A stretch of DNA of 64,000 bases from the IMG/VR virus record IMGVR_UViG_3300031760_000017. One strand, written 5' to 3'. The DNA comes from a virus. Below are positions 3,262 to 27,263 of this stretch, one piece after another. The translations under genes and the position numbers were made by a program. Position 1 is the stretch's first letter. The number at the start of each line of letters is the position of its first letter. The notes beneath the pieces are model-generated. The model saw nothing but the letters and a program-made list of their open reading frames with translations, was not told the origin of the DNA and did not search any database.

Positions 3262-3747
3262 ATGGCAGTATTATTAGAACATTATTCTTTATCTGAAATT
3301 TTTATGTTTACTGTCCTTTTAGCTTTAGCTATAAAAAGTTTAGTATCTTTTTTTGATTGGGCCTATACTTATCTTAAAAAATTCTTTAACAAAGAATATA
3401 AAGAGACTGATGAAAAAAAGGACTTAGAAAAAAGATTACAACATGGCAGCTGGGTTATGACAACTTTACAAACAAATCAAGATATAACTGATCAATATTT
3501 AAAAGAGCTATCTGCAAAGATAGATATGTTAATAGATTCAGATAAAGATGCTATAAAATCTTACATAACAAGCAAGCATCATTACTTTTGTTATTAGGTT
3601 GGATGGATTGATGATTTTAGTTTAGATTGTTTAGAAAAACGTTATTTGCATTATGCAAAAGAAGGAGGAAACTCTTTTATTGAAGGTTTTATGAATGATT
3701 TAAGAAATTTACCAAAAAAACCGCCAACAAATAGTGATAAACATTAA
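3262..3747 (+). CDS. Hypothetical membrane protein with an N-terminal TM helix. It contains one in-frame TAG
   Basis: ORF 3262..3597 ends in TAG and continues in the same frame to a TAA at 3745-3747. Confidence 0.5.
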
Positions 3748-3778
3748 AAAATAAAAAGAGATAAAAGGAGTGTTATAA

Positions 3779-21600: not shown

Positions 21601-24600
21601 TCTTTTAATTTTCTTTTTTGAGCTTCTAATATTGCGGTTTGTTTATTTAAATTATCAAGTAATTGTTTACCATATAATTTATCTTGAATTTTTTGAGTTC
21701 GCTCTAAATCACGATTAATTTTCTTTATTTCAATGTCAATATCGTGATATAAATCTTTCTCTTGCTCTATTGGCTTTTTAGTATTTTTAGTAGAAGTATT
21801 AGTATTATCTTTTGCAGTTTTATCTGCTGCTTTTTGAGCTTTTTCAGCCTCAGCTTTTCTCCTTGCTTGACCCTTTGCTCCAGCGCCATTAGCAGATTTT
21901 TTATATTTAAAACCACCACCAGAAGTTTTATGTGCGGAAACAACTTTTAAAGCAAATGCAGTATGCTATTTAGTTTCCGTATCATCCGCAGGAACTGTTT
22001 TATAACGAATAGTAGGCACTCTATATGTTACCTAACTTCCATCTATGGGGTTTACACCAGTAACTTCTCTATTTGTAACTTCAGCTTCTGCGCCAGTGTA
22101 CTGAACTGTATCTTGCGCAGTTGTTTTTTGCTAGATGATTTCAGCATCTACACCCATAGAAGCTAAATAATCTGTTGCTTGTTTTGCTGTCATATTGGCA
22201 GCATTTACCATATTACTTAATTCTTTTAAGAATCCTTCATTATCCAATGAAGCTCCGATTTTTAAATCCTATAAATTTTTACCCTAATAATATAATTCCA
22301 TTATATCATCAAAGTCTTTCTTAAAAGCTTCTGTATCTAAATGAATTTGGGTAGCAATATCTTGTCCAGCTAATTGCATTAATTGATCATAAGCTTCTAC
22401 ATTACCATCAATTGCCGCCTTCATTAATTTTAAATTCTCAACATTTGTTAAGAAATTATTAGATAATGACTAACCATCTAAATCAAGTAAATCAGCATAA
22501 GCATCTCTTAATCCAGAAATTGCCTATGATTGTTCTTGCCAAGAGCCACTTTGTAAAGCTCCTAGCCAAGTATCATAATTATCAACAACATCTTGAATAG
22601 CATTATCAAATCTTAAAATTGATTCAGCAAGTTCTTCCGCACCTTCACGATCCTATTTTAAAACTTTTGATAATTCTTCACTTTGCTATGATAAACTTTG
22701 AATATCTTTAGTAAGATTTGCATAAGCTGTCTCATCAACATCCGAATCTGTTGGAAACATAGCATCATGTAACTGATGAGCAAGTTTTTCTTCTTCCTAT
22801 TTTAACTAAGCAGTCCTATCACTTAAATCTTTAGTTTGATCACCTACTTTAGCAACAGCATCATAAATCTACTTTACTATACCTGGAAACTCCTAAAGCC
22901 ATTCTTTTGATTTTTGTTGCTTTTCAATAATAGCTGTCCATTCATTTATAATAGGCTAAGTGGCTCCATCTGTATCTTTTAAATATTCAATTTGTTTCTT
23001 TAATAAATCAAAATCAGCATGATTATTTTGAAGAGCTCTATTATCTAATTCATCATAATCATACTGTTTCTAAGATAATAATTGAACTCTATTTAATTCA
23101 GATTCAATCTAGAATAAAGTATTTTTAAATCCTTCTAATTTTAAATTATTAATAAGTGTATAGAACTATTCTGCATCTTCAGTCATTTTATATGACCCAT
23201 TAGCCATCATAGTAAAGAAAGATTGAATCTAAGGAGCTAAATCTCCAAATTCAGTTTTTGAAACGCTCTTTCCACTTCTAACTTGATCTTCAAGAGACTG
23301 ATAAAAAGCATAATTCTCTGCAGCGTCTCCCTGCATAGCAGAAATTTCTTTTATATTAGAAAAATCTGCATGTGAGATATTATCAACAACATTACCTAAA
23401 GTATCCCAGTTAGAAAATATTGATGGAGAAAGTTCAAAAGCTTTAAATAATTCCTCTAAATGTTGTTCATCTAATTCAGATAAATTTTTAATTATTTTAT
23501 CCGGAATTATTCCTGATGCTTTTTCTTGAATTTTATCAATAATTTTACCAATTTCATTATATTGATTATAAAGTTGAGACTATTCAGTAAGAAGATATGA
23601 ATCAGCTAATTCTTTTGCAGTTGTATCTCCTACAAATTCACCCTGCTATTCTAAAGCTGCTTGTAATTTTTGTCTTTGTTGTAAAAATTCTCCAGCATTT
23701 GTTACATTAGAAAAATCAAGGACGCCATGAGCTTCTTTTGATAATCCTATAAAAGCTGCTTGATTTTCATTAACATCTTTCGAAGCGTTGTCAAAAGCTT
23801 CCATCTATTCTGCTGAATCTGCAACCCATTGTGTTAAATCTTTATACCATTGAGATTGTCTCTATTGTTCGCTTAAAGTTTTGCTTAAATCTTCAACAGC
23901 TTTTTTAACTCTAGGATACATTATTAACAAGGACTATAAATTATAATCAACTTTATATTCAATAGTTCCATTATCTTGTTGGCGAAAACCATTTTCACTT
24001 AATATCTCTTTAGCTTCATCGCTCATTCTATTGCTACCAAAAGATAAAGCATAATCAATTTGATTGTCTTCACCAAGTGAACCTTTTACACCACGTTTTC
24101 CTTGAAGTTCAAAAGAGCTCCATAGGTTTTGTTTTGCTGCTTCATACTATTCTTTACTGGAATTATATTTTTTCTAAGCTTCTTCAGCTTTTAATTCTTT
24201 TAAAGTTTGAATTAAATTATCATAATTATTACGTAATCTATCTGCCGCATCGCCTTCAAGACCATATTGATTAATTAAATCTTCTATTCCTGATTTTAAA
24301 TCAGATCTTGTAATCTAGCCTTCTTTATATTTTTGATTTAGCTCTTCAATAGATTTATATAATTCTTGATTTCTACTTAATTGTTCTTGAAGTGTATTTG
24401 CTTCCTAAATAACTGATTCATTATGTTCAATTTGTGCTTTTCTAGCCTATTTACTTTTATTTATTAAAAAACCGAGTGCTGTTACAGCAGCTAATGCAGC
24501 TGTAATAAAAGCTCCTAATGGAGTAATTGTAATAACACTATTAAGAAATTGAATTTGAAAACCTGCTTCTGTTGCAGCAGCACCTATAGCACCAAATGAA

Positions 24601-27263
24601 ACGGCCTTAGCTCCATTAGAAGTAATAACAGCTGCCGCTTCTGCTGTACTCTTTCTAAATTGATAATTTAAAAGATTAGTTGCTTTTCCAACAGCCCCAA
24701 TTCCTTTAATTAACATTGGTAATGAAAAAGATAAATTTGTAACAATTTGAAGTATTCTTTGTCCAGTAGATAAATCCTGATTTTTCCAAACACTTCCTAA
24801 ATGTTGAATTTGTTGAATAGAAGACCCAATTCGAGCAAGACCTGCAGCAGCTTTTGCATATTCCTCAATTCTAACAGCTCTGTCTTTATTTGACATCTCC
24901 CCATTAAAATCGTTTTGTTTTGCATTCATTTGACCGCGCAATTTCTACAATTCAGGAACAATTTTTGGATCATTATAAACCTATTTAAAAATTTTTTCTA
25001 TTTTTGTTTTAATTTCATTACCACTAGTTTCTGTTATTTCTGCTAATTTATCAAAAAAATCTTTAAATTTTTGAAAAGTTTCTTCATTTACACTTTTAGA
25101 AAATCTTTTAGGTAAATCTTCATATAATTGACCAATCTCTTCAATAGCTTTTTGAGTTTCTTTAGAAAACTATTGATTACTAGTCATTTCATCAAAAACT
25201 TCTTTAAGATCTTTTGCTCCTAATCGTAAAGTAGTAAAAAAACTTCTTATGCCATCTTGCCCTACTTTATCAAATATATTTAAAAACTTTTCAGTTGATT
25301 GAGAAACAGACTCAGTTGATTCTTGAAATTCATCATATTCTTGCTAACATTTTTCTAGCATATTTAATATTTCATCAATTTTTTCAGGCTTTCCAACAAT
25401 ATTTTCTAATTTTGTCGTACCTAACTCTTGTCCTGAAATTCTATCTATTAACTATTCTAAAGGTTGTTTTTGTTTAACTAAAGTTTGAATCTAATTTCCA
25501 ATATTAGTAATATCATTTAATAATTTTTGTGCTCCTTGAAATTCTTCTGGAGACATCATTCTTGATAGTTCTAATAAATGTTCTCTATCTTTTAATAAGC
25601 TTTTACTTACTTCATCTAATTCAGGAATTCCTTGCCAATCTTTTGTTGCTTGTAAGGCATTATCAAATTCTCTAGCATTACTATTTGCAATCTCAAGGTT
25701 AGTAATAGTTGTATTTATTCCTTTAGCAATTTGTTCACTAAAAACAGCAACCCCAATAGCTCCAAGAGATTGTAATAATGCCTTACCTCCGCCTAAGCCA
25801 TCAATAAAGTTTGCAACAAAAACTGCAACACCCGATAATGCATCAGTTATACTCTTTATAGAATCAACATCAATTAAACTATCATATACATCTTCAACGG
25901 AAGCTTTTAATTGCTTTAAATGCGCGGCAGTTGAATCCATATATATATCTTGTTGCTTTTGTAAGGTACCTGCTGCATTTTGCGCTGTATTTAATGCTTC
26001 ATTATATTCTTCAAAATTATCAAATAAAGCAAGTAAATTATTATATTGTCTTTGACCAGCCATTGTTTGAGCTAAATAAATTTGCTGTTCACGAGTTAAA
26101 TCATCCCAACGACCGCCAATTTCTTCCATAACTTCGCCCATATCACGAAGATTTCCATTCATGTCAAGAACATTAAAACCAAGTTGTGCCATTTGACTAG
26201 AATATCTACCAAGAGTAACTCCATCTTCATCAATTCCAGCTTTAATATCACTAATACGAGCATAAACAGTTCTTAAAGCTGTACCAACACTCTAAGGAGC
26301 TTGTCTTGTTGCAGAAATAATAGTTGATAACTGTGCAGCTAATTGCTATTCACTAACACCCATTGTGGCGGCCGTACTTGCAACTTTACCCATACCTTTA
26401 CTTAATTCTTCAAGATCTGATGCGGTTGTTGCAGCAACAGCAGCTAATCTATCAATATATATCTAAGCCTAATCCGCATTAACCTTATAACCATTCCAAA
26501 CGGCAGTTAACTGTTCAGAAACGTCTGCTGTTGATTGATTTGTAACATTTGCTGTTTTTAATGTAATTGCGGTTCTAGCCTAAATTTCTTTATCTGATAA
26601 ACCCTGTTGAGCATAAATTAAAGCAGCATTAGTGTAATCTACTGTTGTAGTGCCTAGTTGTTTGGCTGCATTATTGGCTTGCTCTGCAAATCTTCCCATT
26701 TCATCAGCAGTCTTACTAGTAACGATTCTAATATCATTTAATGAAGTATCTAATGATTTAACATATCCAACTGCTTGTTGAATAGTACTAGTGAAACCAC
26801 GAAATACAGTATTAGCTAAATTATATTTTGCAACATTAACAAAAGTCTAAGCAAATTTATCAAGCACTTGATGAGTTTGCTTTAATTCTGCATTAACACT
26901 TAATACATGAGACGATAAATTTCTAAAAGCATTCTCACCAACAGCACCGCTCTTAGAAAAACTTTGATAGACTTTTTCTATTGAAGTTCCAGATTCATTT
27001 AATGACTTATTAAAACTTTCAACATTTGTAGTATTTAATTTTGCATTAAAAGCAGCTCTTAATGCTTTCTATACATTTCCAGCCTATTTCTGAATTGCTA
27101 TTAAATCGGTTTTAGCTGTATCAAAATCAGAATTATTTATTTTCATCATATCTTTTATAGTTAAATTTTGAATCTCTTTTAAAGATTTTTTTAACTAATT
27201 TAAACTCTGTTTTTGAATGTCAAAACCAATAGAATAGATAATATCTCCACCCTTTTTTGCCAT
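18612..27263 (-). CDS. Tape-measure protein, TP901-like core. Giant at about 2,883 aa, TAG-recoded with about 90 in-frame TAGs
   Basis: Track ORFs 18675.., 20025.., 24447.. and 25491.. are all in one frame. The ATG at 27261-27263 has a GGAGATAAAAGG SD. The TAA stop is at 18612-18614. The core motif is LGFNVLDMNGNLRDMGEVMEEIGGRWDDLTREQQIYLAQTMAGQRQ. Confidence 0.7.

What the first reader, a model, noticed from the sequence alone, without database searches (positions are those of the whole stretch)
3262..27263. Amber (TAG) stop-codon reassignment confined largely to late genes
Both sides of the contrast are directly visible. About 22 kb of obviously coding late-gene DNA is peppered with in-frame TAG at about 2-3% of codons: tail and baseplate genes, integrase, resolvase, a 1,560-aa fibre, and a 2,883-aa tape-measure gene. 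That DNA never contains in-frame TAA or TGA, and every gene still terminates with TAA or TGA. Roughly 6,000 codons of replication and accessory genes carry zero TAG (gyrA, ligA, dnaB, primase, Dda, MVP-like, RNA ligase, and the Ro60-like gene at 1464..3014). This matches the reported pattern of code-15-like recoding in phages, where a suppressor tRNA gates late-gene translation. It also means that a standard six-frame annotation of this element is badly fragmented.
Basis: partly seen in the sequence, partly recalled or inferred. Interest (0 to 1): 0.9.

Follow-up and report, generated by a model that had tools for sequence, protein, structure and literature searches.

The report
Phage reads TAG as glutamate
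This large gut or rumen phage uses the stop codon TAG as an ordinary codon in its virion, lysis and some DNA-processing genes, but comparison with relatives indicates it encodes glutamate, not the glutamine assumed for all recoded phages so far.

Summary
With TAG read as sense, the window holds ORFs of 2,883 and 1,563 codons (longest in 50 shuffles: 204). There are 196 in-frame TAGs in 21 of 48 genes, and every complete gene ends in TAA or TGA.

A tRNA with anticodon CUA lies 4.9 kb upstream of the window on the same contig.

- TAG is dense in tail, tape-measure, fibre and endolysin genes and absent from 27 genes (7,478 codons), including gyrase, ligase, DnaB and RNA ligase.
- It is not confined to late genes or to the stated range. 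RecJ-like, RuvC-like, four homing-endonuclease-like genes and an integrase are also recoded.
- Two genes inside the range have no TAG.

The "code 15" label looks wrong. Three lines of evidence point to TAG = Glu.
- TAG sits in conserved-Glu alignment columns, not conserved-Gln ones. These include the GH73 catalytic Glu and four acidic columns of the tape-measure core.
- Covariance models place the suppressor with tRNA-Glu (71.8 bits) rather than tRNA-Gln (50.3 bits).
- A sister clade with Gln-like suppressors places TAG in Gln columns, which serves as an internal control.

I found no report of TAG→Glu in phages. Public protein collections translate these TAGs as Q.

The parts
396..1395 (+). 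Last four tRNA genes (Gln-UUG, Gly-UCC, Arg-UCU, Cys-GCA) of a 24-tRNA array. The array begins upstream of the window and contains the amber suppressor tRNA(CUA). The suppressor is at L001:3536-3609, which is window -4974..-4901, about contig positions 10394-10467 of ENA ERZ27256908:k141_3321089.
   Evidence: ARAGORN. Rfam tRNA model, 62.8 bits for the suppressor. Contig mapping.
1491..3014 (+). 0 TAG.
   Evidence: Pfam 3.6e-48 and 2.9e-31. Counts.
3262..3747 (+). Small membrane-like protein of unknown function. 1 TAG, at codon 112.
   Evidence: No family hit.
3833..5752 (+). Tail or baseplate-region protein. 11 TAG, the first at codon 4.
   Evidence: phrog_30026, 6.8e-11, unknown function. 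Orthologues in 13 relatives, with TAG in all-Glu columns.
5756..7672 (+). Tail protein. 15 TAG.
   Evidence: phrog_32343 4.1e-50; phrog_1887 'tail protein' 1.5e-9. Columns E 6/6 and E 7/7 at window TAGs.
7690..8703 (-). Tyrosine recombinase (integrase). 10 TAG.
   Evidence: Pfam Phage_integrase 2.8e-37 plus the SAM-like N-domain, matched across TAG positions.
8913..11014 (-). CotH kinase-like gene (8913-10181) and an unknown gene (10190-11014). Both have 0 TAG although they lie inside the recoded tail region.
   Evidence: Pfam CotH 5.9e-28. Counts.
11014..12424 (-). Two genes, 11014-12114 and 12107-12424, with one TAG each. 11014-12114 has a repeated ...T(L/I)..(E/T)G(A/T)AADA.AV... motif seen by eye in the translation.
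   Evidence: phrog_3971, 3.3e-9, unknown function.. I did not test a fibre function.
12811..13299 (+). RuvC-like Holliday-junction resolvase. 7 TAG in 162 codons.
   Evidence: Pfam RuvC 2.5e-4, 21.4 bits, just below the 22.2-bit cut-off.
13604..18295 (-). 1,563-aa tail fibre-like protein. 26 TAG, ends in TGA.
   Evidence: No PHROG or Pfam hit. The fibre assignment rests on size, position and repeats only.
18612..27263 (-). 2,883-aa tail tape measure protein. 71 TAG.
   Evidence: phrog_4211, 1.9e-61. PF10145 in all 120 listed homologues. Window TAGs fall in columns E 115/119, E 105/120, E 98/119 and D 108/120.
27464..36667 (+). Accessory block that is almost TAG-free: metallophosphatase; SPFH/flotillin (28277-29851, single TAG at codon 3); MVP-shoulder protein (30774-33263, 1 TAG); RNA ligase (33779-35017); AAA_33 kinase (35646-36146); phosphoesterase (36146-36667).
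   Evidence: Pfam. Counts.
37098..39383 (+). Multidomain endolysin (GH73 glucosaminidase, Amidase_2, two PG_binding_1, SH3). 14 TAG, one at the GH73 catalytic Glu position (codon 36).
   Evidence: Pfam. PDB alignments: query 'vligqmclXtgygtg' against FlgJ 2zyc 'FLVAQAALETGWGKS' and 7qfu 'MMAQAIVESGWG'.
39491..48691 (+). RNase H, GyrB-like, GyrA and NAD-ligase genes, all with 0 TAG. Two endonuclease-like genes are interspersed, each with 4 TAG (40059-40856, no family assigned, and the GIY-YIG-like 42763-43452).
   Evidence: Pfam. Counts. GIY-YIG motif of 42763-43452 by eye.
49147..51528 (+). Three recoded genes: GIY-YIG nuclease (49147-50091, 9 TAG), unknown (50088-50942, 4 TAG), GIY-YIG-like (50902-51528, 4 TAG).
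   Evidence: Pfam GIY-YIG 4.9e-8. GIY-YIG/NUMOD3 in the L002 orthologue. Window TAG in columns E 24/24 and E 25/25.
51801..58135 (+). Replication block: YorF-like, AAA_24 (53255-54295, 2 TAG), YorH-like, DnaB/YorI-like helicase, and two unknown genes. All other genes have 0 TAG.
   Evidence: Pfam on the window DnaB and on orthologues. SPbeta yorI is the best cultured match, at 40% identity.
58423..60204 (+). RecJ-like DHH/DHHA1 exonuclease. 8 TAG, the first at codon 4.
   Evidence: Pfam. TAGs fall in columns E 70/72 and E 70/78. The public protein P0001 carries Q at all 8 sites.
60337..64000 (+). Dda/UvrD-like helicase (61047-62228), small ORFs and the start of a DnaE-type polymerase. 0 TAG.
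   Evidence: Pfam AAA_30 1.5e-23 and UvrD_C_2. Polymerase inferred from orthologous loci.

Best explanation
The window is about three quarters of an 84-kb metagenomic contig from a roughly 140-kb SPbeta-like siphovirus, most likely of a Bacillota host. In this phage TAG is not a stop.

Shown:
- TAG is a sense codon. It makes up about a quarter of all glutamate-position codons in 13 genes with at least 4 TAGs each (2.1% of their codons). It is completely absent from the core replication and accessory genes.
- The phage carries a tRNA with anticodon CUA, inside a 24-tRNA array just upstream of the window.
- Comparative evidence indicates that the inserted residue is glutamate. TAG sits in conserved-Glu columns, including catalytic ones, and the suppressor has a tRNA-Glu body.

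Inferred mechanism:
- The host's glutamyl-tRNA synthetase charges the suppressor with Glu. In most Bacillota this enzyme must already tolerate variation at anticodon position 36, because it also charges tRNA-Gln.
- The suppressor has a strong C1-G72 pair and the longer Glu-type D-loop, not the U1-A72 pair and short D-loop that bacterial GatCAB requires. Glu is therefore not amidated to Gln and is delivered at UAG.

Inferred regulation (not shown):
- Genes containing TAG, several with a TAG within the first five codons, can only be completed once the phage tRNA has accumulated enough to outcompete RF1.
- This would delay virion, lysis and some recombination functions relative to the TAG-free replication genes.
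For: TAG is sense.

Suppressor tRNA(CUA). It is conserved in relatives.

TAG = Glu, line 1, alignment columns.
- Replication-side orthogroups: other sequences at 192 TAG columns hold E 0.30, K 0.14, Q 0.10. This resembles the GAG control, not the CAG control.
- Among columns at least 90% conserved, TAG occurs in 12 of 55 Glu columns and 2 of 30 Gln columns.
- Codetta-like log-odds over 493 TAG columns: E +191, K -316, Q -331. The controls GAG, CAG and AAG return E, Q and K correctly.
- Window codons only, 60 columns: E +53.5, Q -29.5.
- The window's own TAGs in the tape-measure core fall in columns E 115/119, E 105/120, E 98/119 and D 108/120. Their pooled profile matches query-Glu columns, not query-Gln columns.

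Line 2, catalytic residue. A TAG occupies the position of the GH73 catalytic Glu in the AQxxLE[ST]GxG motif of FlgJ-type structures.

Line 3, the tRNA.
- With the anticodon masked, the window's suppressor scores 71.8 bits on a tRNA-Glu covariance model and 50.3 bits on a tRNA-Gln model.
- It is the second-best Glu-model hit in its own array, after the true tRNA-Glu (81.9). The next tRNA scores 63.3.
- Ten suppressors of this clade score 57.9-72.8 on the Glu model and 40.0-54.0 on the Gln model.
- Shared features with tRNA-Glu: G2·U71, A73, anticodon at position 35, strong 1-72 pair.

Line 4, internal control.
- A sister clade has Gln-like suppressors (weak 1-72 pair, G73, short D-arm) that mostly score higher on the Gln model. 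That clade places TAG in Gln columns: Q +85, E -96.
- Grouping loci by tRNA type alone gives E:Q of 123:16 against 0:20.

GatCAB identity rules (U1-A72 pair, extra D-loop base U20B): PMC2811023.

Bacillota host range of the nearest cultured relatives (SPbeta, phi3T, Enterococcus EF-type phages).

Early-codon TAG enrichment: 6 of 21 genes against 1.28 expected, P=0.002.
Against: - There is no protein-level or aminoacylation data. The amino acid is inferred from conservation and tRNA shape only.
- A minority of TAG columns are Gln-dominated. Examples are the AAA_24 gene column with Q 29/36 and three of 23 evaluable sites in the tail genes.
- An internal repeat of the endolysin pairs a TAG with Q (GDFG[TAG]NT against GDFGQNT).
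- E and Q exchange readily, so variable columns carry little information.
- A profile-HMM isotype classification built from phage tRNAs was uninformative.
- GluRS usually reads the anticodon. Acceptance of CUA by the unknown host's enzyme is assumed, not shown.
- The host is not identified, and whether it lacks GlnRS is unknown.
- Gating is weakened by TAG-rich integrase, RecJ and endonuclease genes, and by TAG-free genes inside the tail region. The latter could instead reflect recent acquisition.
- The clade split used for the Fisher tests was partly defined from the same tallies. The window-only result, the tape-measure result and the grouping by tRNA type do not have this problem.
Confidence: 0.8

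Rival explanations
1. Standard 'code 15'. TAG is read as glutamine by a tRNA-Gln-derived suppressor, as in crAss-like and other recoded phages.
For: - This is the only TAG reassignment described for phages in the papers read. Borges preprint: 'TAG aligned best with glutamine' in most cases. Proteomic proof exists for crAss-like phages (PMC9523058, abstract). Gln is claimed for phAss-1, a 136-kb phage with a similar layout.
- A few window TAGs lie in Gln-rich columns.
- One internal endolysin repeat pairs TAG with Q.
- A sister clade in the same family does behave as TAG=Gln.
Against: - TAG is enriched in conserved-Glu columns and nearly absent from conserved-Gln columns: 12/55 against 2/30, and 22/32 against 1/18.
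- The log-odds margin of E over Q is more than 500 nats across the clade and 83 nats for the window alone.
- A TAG sits at the GH73 catalytic Glu.
- Tape-measure core columns at window TAGs are 83-97% Glu.
- The suppressor lacks the U1-A72, G73 and short D-loop seen in 49 of 55 tRNA-Gln genes in these phages. It scores 21 bits higher on the Glu model than on the Gln model.
Confidence: 0.08
2. TAG has no single meaning. It may be read ambiguously (a Glu/Gln/Lys mixture through near-cognate or promiscuously charged tRNA), or as Glu in some genes while still acting as a leaky stop in others.
For: - Variable TAG columns hold E, K and Q.
- One short ORF, 36764-37036, has its only TAG six codons before its TAA, so that TAG could be a real stop.
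- RF1 competition is expected in a standard-code host (inference).
Against: - The strongly conserved columns are almost exclusively Glu.
- A dedicated, conserved tRNA(CUA) with normal anticodon-loop features (U33, A37, A38) is present.
- 71 TAGs in one essential 2,883-codon gene require efficient and accurate decoding.
Confidence: 0.05
3. The distribution of TAG among genes is not a timing device. It would be a by-product of history and constraint. GAG→TAG changes drift in wherever expression already coincides with the tRNA, or in long-resident fast-evolving genes. Recently acquired or highly constrained genes simply have not accumulated them. This is compatible with TAG = Glu.
For: - TAG-free CotH-like and neighbouring genes sit inside the recoded tail region. 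The tail module is mosaic: tail genes are only 31-54% identical even in relatives whose flanking gene is 96-98% identical.
- Integrase, RecJ-like, RuvC-like and homing-endonuclease-like genes are recoded.
- All NAG codons, not only GAG, are rarer in TAG-rich genes.
Against: - Zero TAG in 7,478 codons of replication and accessory genes, against 2.1% elsewhere, implies active purifying selection in one set.
- The endolysin is recoded although it is embedded among TAG-free genes.
- TAG is over-represented in the first five codons (6 genes against 1.28 expected, P=0.002). This fits a gate better than drift.
- The same structural and lysis bias recurs in unrelated recoded phage clades.
Confidence: 0.3

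Closest known systems
Stop-codon-recoded gut phages with suppressor tRNAs (Borges et al., bioRxiv 10.1101/2021.08.26.457843). The closest clade described there is 'Agate': 127-154 kb, from cattle and pig samples.
   Same: - In-frame TAG in intact genes.
- A phage-encoded tRNA(CUA).
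- Recoding concentrated in structural and lysis genes and variable in replication genes.
- Recoded modules scattered across the genome.
- Genome size class about 140 kb in near relatives.
   Different: - The amino acid inferred here is Glu, whereas that work reports Gln for TAG.
- The integrase here carries 10 TAGs, whereas integrases of the Garnet and Topaz clades avoid recoded stops.
- No RF2 gene was seen in the window.
- Clade membership could not be tested, because the terminase is not in the window.
Genetic code 15 in crAss-like phages (Peters et al., PMC9523058) and the phAss-1 / 'Phassvirus' group (Babkin et al., PMC10607447).
   Same: - TAG is read through by a phage tRNA(CUA).
- phAss-1 is also a roughly 136-kb siphovirus with dozens of tRNAs and a tape measure longer than 3,000 aa. 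It clusters near the Enterococcus EF1 and Enterocloster PMBT10 phages. The window's DnaB likewise matches SPbeta-, Enterococcus- and Enterocloster-type phages.
   Different: - Those phages are reported as TAG→Gln, by proteomics for crAss-like phages and by tRNAscan isotype and TerL alignment for phAss-1.
- Here both the column evidence and the tRNA body say Glu.
- There was no nucleotide-level match to any record of the INPHARED collection.
NCBI translation tables 30 (peritrich ciliates) and 31 (Blastocrithidia), recalled from my own knowledge.
   Same: TAG specifies glutamate.
   Different: - Those are eukaryotic nuclear codes in which TAA is also reassigned, and in table 31 TGA too.
- Here TAA is the main stop (40 of 47 genes) and TGA the second.
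- Here the reassignment is carried by a virus inside a presumably standard-code host.
Bacillus phage SPbeta / phi3T and Enterococcus EF1-like large temperate siphoviruses.
   Same: - YorI-type DnaB helicase at 38-42% identity.
- YorF and YorH homologues.
- DnaE-type polymerase and NrdD in orthologous loci.
- Genome size 125-140 kb.
- An integrase.
   Different: - The phAss-1 paper found no stop-codon recoding in Enterococcus phage EF1 or Enterocloster phage PMBT10. I did not check SPbeta or phi3T, which I know only as standard-code phages.
- Identity to the window is low.
- The tail module is unrelated at the sequence level.

Membership tests
TAG-recoded phage with suppressor tRNA (Borges-type stop-codon recoding) | In-frame TAG in otherwise intact genes, with homology continuing across TAG. 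| tested here: met
   196 in-frame TAGs. Pfam and PHROG domains span them. ORFs of 2,883 and 1,563 codons against at most 204 in shuffles.
TAG-recoded phage with suppressor tRNA (Borges-type stop-codon recoding) | Coding density rises markedly when TAG is read as sense. | tested here: met
   Coverage by ORFs of at least 150 codons rises from 0.55 to 0.92.
TAG-recoded phage with suppressor tRNA (Borges-type stop-codon recoding) | Phage-encoded tRNA with anticodon CUA. | tested here: met
   L001:3536-3609, 4.9 kb upstream of the window on the same contig. Rfam tRNA 62.8 bits. Present in at least 10 relatives.
TAG-recoded phage with suppressor tRNA (Borges-type stop-codon recoding) | Recoded codons enriched in structural and lysis genes and depleted in early or replication genes. 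| tested here: met
   Tail, tape-measure, fibre and endolysin genes carry 1.7-2.5% TAG. Gyrase, ligase, DnaB, helicase and RNA ligase carry none. Exceptions: RecJ-like, RuvC-like, integrase and the GIY-YIG genes are recoded.
Genetic code 15 (TAG = Gln) | TAG decoded as glutamine. | tested here: not met
   TAG sits in conserved-Glu columns, not conserved-Gln columns. Log-odds E +191 against Q -331. TAG at the GH73 catalytic Glu. Tape-measure columns 83-97% Glu. This is an inference from conservation, not a protein measurement.
Genetic code 15 (TAG = Gln) | Suppressor of tRNA-Gln type (weak 1-72 pair, G73, short D-loop). | tested here: not met
   C1-G72, G2·U71, A73, anticodon at position 35. 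Glu model 71.8 bits against Gln model 50.3 bits.
NCBI tables 30/31 (TAR = Glu) | Both TAA and TAG encode Glu. | tested here: not met
   TAA terminates 40 of 47 complete genes. Only TAG is reassigned.
Pyrrolysine decoding (ARAGORN labels the tRNA 'Pyl') | UAG read as Pyl by tRNA-Pyl, with pylS/pylBCD genes, and TAG at Pyl sites of methyltransferases. | tested here: not met
   None of the domain searches run on 32 of the 48 genes returned a pyl hit. The other 16, mostly short ORFs, were not searched. TAG is spread at 2% over phage structural genes and aligns with Glu. The label only reflects the CUA anticodon.
Agate clade of Borges et al. | Placement in the terminase phylogeny. Genome about 127-154 kb, animal gut source, Firmicutes host. 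| not testable with these tools
   No terminase in the window and no reference sequences available. Size class (relatives of 133-144 kb) and Bacillota-type relatives are compatible.
SPbeta-like large temperate siphoviruses | YorI/YorF/YorH-type replication module, DnaE-type polymerase, very long tape measure, integrase, about 130-kb genome. | tested here: inconclusive
   Homologues are present but distant: DnaB 38-42% identity; YorF, YorH, DNA_pol3_alpha and NRDD in orthologous loci. No shared nucleotide similarity.
Theta-ribozyme-associated suppressor tRNAs (Kienbeck et al., PMC10879173) | Minimal HDV-like ribozyme adjacent to the tRNA-Sup. | tested here: inconclusive
   No HDV-like or other ribozyme hit next to the suppressor in an Rfam E-value scan of the array. 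I did not confirm that Rfam 15 holds a theta-ribozyme model.

The most novel reading that the evidence does not exclude
A whole clade of about 140-kb SPbeta-like phages has reassigned TAG to glutamate, using a suppressor derived from tRNA-Glu. Relatives come from dozens of IMG/VR and ENA contigs, and some are binned into Bacillota MAGs. To my knowledge, this genetic code is not listed for any bacterium, archaeon or virus.

Sister clades of the same family use TAG = Gln with Gln-type suppressors. The amino-acid outcome may therefore be set by whether the suppressor carries the GatCAB identity elements (U1-A72 pair, short D-loop) in hosts that make Gln-tRNA by transamidation.

As a consequence, code-15 gene callers would put Q where E belongs in the recoded proteins of this clade held in public collections; I verified this for one protein.
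Probability: 0.7. Interest if true: 0.8.

Novelty: new variant of a known kind. Interest (0 to 1): 0.72.

Why it matters
Stop-codon recoding in phages is established, but the papers I searched treat amber recoding as TAG→Gln. Gene callers offer only that option. If this clade reads TAG as Glu, several things follow.

- Phage recoding would not be one repeated solution. It would have arisen with different amino acids in closely related lineages, which allows a direct comparison of how a suppressor's identity elements decide the outcome.
- Public protein sets would be systematically wrong at about 2% of residues in the affected genes, including catalytic residues. The RecJ-like protein of this very contig is stored with Q at all 8 TAG sites. 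This would degrade homology searches, structure prediction and metaproteomic matching.
- It suggests a testable link between host aminoacylation pathways (GlnRS versus ND-GluRS plus GatCAB) and which codes a phage can adopt.
- A natural tRNA-Glu(CUA) that escapes GatCAB could be useful for amber suppression in Gram-positive hosts.

Tried and rejected
- Megablast of 24.6 kb against INPHARED phages gave no match.
- Searching IMG/VR with the tape-measure protein (TAG written as Q) and with the CotH-like protein gave no confirmed relatives. The RecJ-like and DUF2828 genes worked as anchors instead.
- I considered that E at TAG columns might only reflect GAG→TAG mutational proximity or the abundance of Glu. 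I rejected this for three reasons. AAG is as common as GAG, yet Lys columns are not enriched. The signal is strongest in columns at least 90% conserved. The same method returns Gln for a sister clade.
- Profile-HMM isotype classification of the suppressor from phage tRNA sets was noisy, with top hits Cys and Trp, so I discarded it. Covariance models with the anticodon masked gave a clear answer.
- The log-odds control fails for major or single codons (GAT, TGG), because their synonyms are removed. It is valid only for minor codons, which is the TAG-like case.
- I looked for a theta or HDV-like ribozyme next to the suppressor and found none.
- I looked for inverted repeats that would make the integrase a fibre-gene invertase. 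Only weak AT-rich matches turned up.
- Testing TAA as a second sense codon in relatives that carry a tRNA(UUA) was uninformative, because these genomes are so AT-rich.
- One literature query with generic phrases returned only irrelevant papers.
- Pyrrolysine (the ARAGORN label) is rejected, as set out in the membership test.

Full report
**1. What the window is**

A gene of the window, 1491-3014, is found with identical product on one public contig: ENA ERZ27256908:k141_3321089, 84,156 bp. Window position 1 corresponds to about contig position 15,369. The window is 30% G+C.

It has no nucleotide-level match in the INPHARED phage collection. At the protein level its DnaB helicase is 38-42% identical to YorI of Bacillus phages SPbeta and phi3T, and to helicases of Enterococcus phages of about 135-140 kb.

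Orthologous loci carry YorF- and YorH-like genes, a DnaE-type polymerase and NrdD.

Hundreds of relatives exist in metagenomes, many on contigs of 125-145 kb. Several are binned into MAGs labelled Erysipelotrichaceae, Bacilli, Clostridium or Eubacteriales. I therefore treat the element as a large SPbeta-like siphovirus, probably of a Bacillota host. The host itself is not identified.

**2.

- With TAA and TGA as the only stops, the window contains ORFs of 2,888 and 1,564 codons. The longest standard-code ORF is 782 codons, and the longest in 50 shuffles is 204.
- Coverage by long ORFs rises from 0.55 to 0.92.
- I curated 48 genes. Together they hold 196 in-frame TAGs in 18,870 codons.
- Most of the recoded genes have good Shine-Dalgarno sequences (3833-5752 does not). 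All 47 complete genes end in TAA (40) or TGA (7).
- Domain models match straight across TAGs. Examples are Phage_integrase (2.8e-37), the four-domain endolysin, the DHH/DHHA1 exonuclease, and the tape measure (phrog_4211, 1.9e-61).
- Twenty-seven genes (7,478 codons) have no TAG at all. They include GyrA, GyrB-like, NAD ligase, DnaB, a Dda/UvrD-like helicase, RNA ligase, RNase H and the DUF2828 protein.
- The gene caller behind the public protein collection had already called the recoded genes full length.

**3.

Recoding is not limited to 3262-27263. Outside that range:
- endolysin 37098-39383 has 14 TAGs;
- GIY-YIG nuclease 49147-50091 has 9;
- the RecJ-like exonuclease 58423-60204 has 8;
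- four further genes have 4 each, and three have 1-2.

Inside the range, a CotH-like gene (8913-10181) and its neighbour (10190-11014) have none, and 11014-12114 has one.

The pattern is therefore gene by gene, not block-wise. The endolysin is recoded while flanked by TAG-free genes. The recoded set also includes enzymes not usually counted as 'late': integrase, a RuvC-like resolvase, RecJ and homing-endonuclease-like genes.

**4. The suppressor tRNA**

The window holds only four tRNAs, none with anticodon CUA. Fetching the contig upstream shows that they are the end of a 24-tRNA array.

The array includes a tRNA(CUA) at L001:3536-3609, 4.9 kb before window position 1. It scores 62.8 bits on the Rfam tRNA model. 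It folds as a cloverleaf with anticodon loop CUCUAAA.

Homologous suppressors occur at the equivalent place in at least ten relatives.

**5. Which amino acid? Alignment columns**

I expected Gln. The first codon-level comparison (window against L002, 80% identical in RecJ) instead paired TAG mostly with GAA. I then built three independent data sets.

(a) Orthogroups of the replication side, using 91 loci anchored on RecJ.
- At 192 TAG-containing columns the other sequences hold E 0.30, K 0.14, Q 0.10. This resembles the minor Glu codon GAG (E 0.28) and differs from the minor Gln codon CAG (Q 0.15, K 0.15, E 0.15).
- Among columns at least 90% conserved, TAG occurs in 12 of 55 Glu columns and 2 of 30 Gln columns.

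- Over 200 TAG columns: E 0.33, Q 0.06.
- TAG occurs in 22 of 32 conserved-Glu columns and 1 of 18 conserved-Gln columns.

(c) The tape-measure core, compared with 120 database homologues.
- The window's own TAGs fall in columns E 115/119, E 105/120, E 98/119, D 108/120 and E 57/104.
- The pooled profile is E 476, Q 173, D 140. It equals that of the query's Glu positions (E 0.43, Q 0.13, D 0.10), not its Gln positions (Q 0.52).
- The Q background at Glu positions is itself explained by relatives' TAGs having been translated as Q by code-15 callers.

A Codetta-style log-odds over 110 all-against-all clusters gives the following.
- This clade, 493 columns: E +191, K -316, Q -331.
- Window codons only, 60 columns: E +53.5, Q -29.5.
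- The minor-codon controls GAG, CAG and AAG are decoded correctly.

**6. Catalytic residue**

In the endolysin's GH73 domain the sequence LIGQMCL-TAG-TGYG aligns with FLVAQAALETGWG of FlgJ (2zyc, 3vwo) and MMAQAIVESGWG of 7qfu. The entry 3k3t has A at the same position.

From my own knowledge, that Glu is the GH73 general acid and 3k3t is its alanine mutant. A Gln there would inactivate the domain.

TAG also aligns with E or D in the PG_binding_1 motif of four solved structures. It falls in all-Glu columns of the GIY-YIG and RecJ-like families: E 24/24, E 25/25 and E 70/72.

**7. The tRNA body agrees**

| Class (unique sequences) | 1-72 pair | 2-71 pair | Position 73 | Anticodon starts at |
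|---|---|---|---|---|
| tRNA-Glu (25) | mixed: G-C 7, G·U 7, U-A 4, others 6 | G·U in 12 | A in 19 | 34-36 |
| tRNA-Gln (55) | U1-A72 or A1-U72 in 49 | G-C in 44 | G in 49 | 33 in 33, 34 in 15 |
| Suppressors of this clade (10) | strong, C-G or G-C in 8 | G·U in 8 | A or C in 9 | 35 in 7 |

These figures come from 831 tRNAs in the fetched loci.

I built covariance models from the phage tRNA-Glu and tRNA-Gln sets with the anticodon masked.
- The window's suppressor scores 71.8 bits on the Glu model and 50.3 bits on the Gln model.
- It ranks second in its own array on the Glu model, after the true tRNA-Glu (81.9). The next tRNA scores 63.3.
- The ten suppressors of the clade score 57.9-72.8 on the Glu model and 40.0-54.0 on the Gln model.

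**8. An internal control**

A neighbouring clade of the same family behaves in the opposite way. It includes L105-L115, L130, L151, L158-L161 and L168-L173.
- Its TAGs sit in conserved-Gln columns. At the 90% threshold: Q 10, W 5, E 1. Log-odds: Q +85, E -96.
- Its suppressors have a U1·U72 mismatch, G73 and a short D-arm. Four of the seven for which both scores were listed, plus one listed only on the Gln model, score 57-59 bits on the Gln model (35-49 on the Glu model). The other three score about equally on both.
- Grouping loci only by suppressor type gives E:Q of 123:16 against 0:20.

The method can therefore return Gln. The two lines of evidence, codon columns and tRNA body, co-vary across clades.

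**9. Mechanism**

Shown:
- TAG is sense.
- The tRNA exists and is Glu-like.
- TAG occupies Glu positions.

Inferred:
- Host GluRS charges the suppressor.
- Bacterial GatCAB recognises U1-A72 and rejects tRNA-Glu through its extra D-loop base U20B (PMC2811023). A Glu-charged suppressor with C1-G72 and a Glu-type D-loop would therefore stay Glu. A Gln-type suppressor would be amidated.
- From my own knowledge, most Bacillota lack GlnRS and use a non-discriminating GluRS plus GatCAB. This would also remove the GlnRS mischarging that amber suppressors suffer in E. coli.

Also inferred: gating.
- TAG-containing genes cannot be completed until the suppressor accumulates.
- In support, one gene set is completely free of TAG, and TAG is enriched within the first five codons (6 of 21 genes against 1.28 expected, P=0.002). 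This includes a flotillin-like gene whose only TAG is codon 3.
- Against a simple early/late switch are the recoded integrase, RecJ-like and nuclease genes, and the TAG-free genes in the mosaic tail region. The latter may be recent arrivals.

**10. Codon usage**

| Gene set | GAA | GAG | TAG | CAA+CAG |
|---|---|---|---|---|
| Genes with at least 4 TAGs | 5.43% | 0.55% | 2.11% | 4.38% |
| TAG-free genes | 5.55% | 1.39% | 0 | 2.57% |

- In the recoded genes TAG is four times as frequent as GAG. It makes up about 26% of Glu-position codons.
- Counting TAG as Gln would raise Gln to 6.5% in those genes, against 2.6% in TAG-free genes.
- Counting TAG as Glu gives 8.1% against 6.9%.
- This is weak evidence, but it is consistent with Glu.

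**11. Comparison with the literature**

- The Borges preprint reports that TAG 'aligned best with glutamine' in most cases. It describes 127-154 kb 'Agate' phages from cattle and pigs with scattered recoded modules.
- Peters et al. state in their abstract that they confirmed code 15 in crAss-like phages by proteomics.
- Babkin et al. assign Gln in phAss-1.
- Kienbeck et al. predicted isotypes Gln, Trp, Ile and Tyr for 180 phage suppressors, and none Glu.
- A 2026 jumbo-phage survey treats TAG as Q by definition.
- Only one paper in the library contains 'code 15', 'glutamate', 'phages' and 'TAG' together, and its 'glutamate' refers to glnA.

I therefore found no prior report of TAG→Glu in a phage. 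This is an absence in the held library, not proof of absence. The public protein for this contig's RecJ-like gene has Q at all eight TAG sites.

**12. Verdict**

- The element is a new variant of a known kind of system.
- My confidence that TAG is a sense codon is about 0.97. My confidence that it encodes Glu is about 0.85. My confidence that it acts as a timing gate is about 0.5.

Noticed in passing
All are TAG-free. This could be a tRNA repair or counter-defence module.
   Followed up: partly
window 28277-33263: An SPFH/flotillin-like gene is adjacent to a protein with Major Vault Protein shoulder and repeat domains (PF11978, 5.3e-23). The flotillin-like gene's only TAG is codon 3. This is an unusual pair for a phage, and its function is unknown.
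   Followed up: partly
window genes 3833, 13604, 28277, 37098, 50088, 58423: The first TAG lies within the first five codons in 6 of 21 TAG-containing genes (expected 1.28, P=0.002). This looks like a start-proximal 'gate'. At the one site checked in relatives (the RecJ-like gene) the codon is not conserved as TAG.
   Followed up: partly
window 7690-8703: The tyrosine integrase carries 10 TAGs. This is the opposite of the integrase avoidance of recoded stops reported for Garnet and Topaz prophages. It has no orthologue at this position in the fetched relatives, and no convincing flanking inverted repeats were found.
   Followed up: partly
window 8913-11014: The CotH kinase-like gene and its neighbour have zero TAG inside the recoded tail region. 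The tail module is mosaic: it is 31-54% identical even in relatives whose flanking gene is 96-98% identical. This suggests recent acquisition from a standard-code source.
   Followed up: partly
window 40059-40856, 42763-43452, 49147-50091, 50902-51528: Four GIY-YIG or homing-endonuclease-like genes are interspersed among gyrase and replication genes. All carry TAG, so these mobile genes are adapted to the phage's code.
   Followed up: no
P0001 and the other proteins; gene calls of L001: The public protein collection translates this clade's TAG as Q. If TAG = Glu, about 2% of residues in the recoded proteins are wrong, including catalytic ones.
   Followed up: yes
L105-L115, L130, L151, L158-L161, L168-L173: A sister clade appears to use TAG = Gln with Gln-like suppressors. 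Some of its TAGs also fall in conserved-Trp columns (5 of 19 at the 90% threshold), which is unexplained.
   Followed up: partly
L102:6561-6635 and L137:1109-1181: Two relatives carry a tRNA with anticodon UUA (ochre-suppressor-like), in addition to or instead of CUA. Testing TAA as a sense codon was uninformative in these AT-rich genomes.
   Followed up: partly
L130, L135, L141, L144, L166, L173 (suppressor tRNAs of 88-92 nt): Several CUA suppressors in distant relatives carry an insertion of about 15-18 nt after the anticodon arm, with a shared ...CTCTGAAGG... motif. It could be a long variable arm or an intron-like element.
   Followed up: no
L103:8425-8702: ARAGORN calls a tmRNA-like gene (tag peptide ADNYTYQMAA*) inside the tRNA array of a recoded relative.
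   Followed up: no
L001:1-523 (upstream of the window): A sigma-70 family gene (regions 1.2-4) lies immediately upstream of the tRNA array that holds the suppressor. It may be relevant to when the array is transcribed.
   Followed up: no
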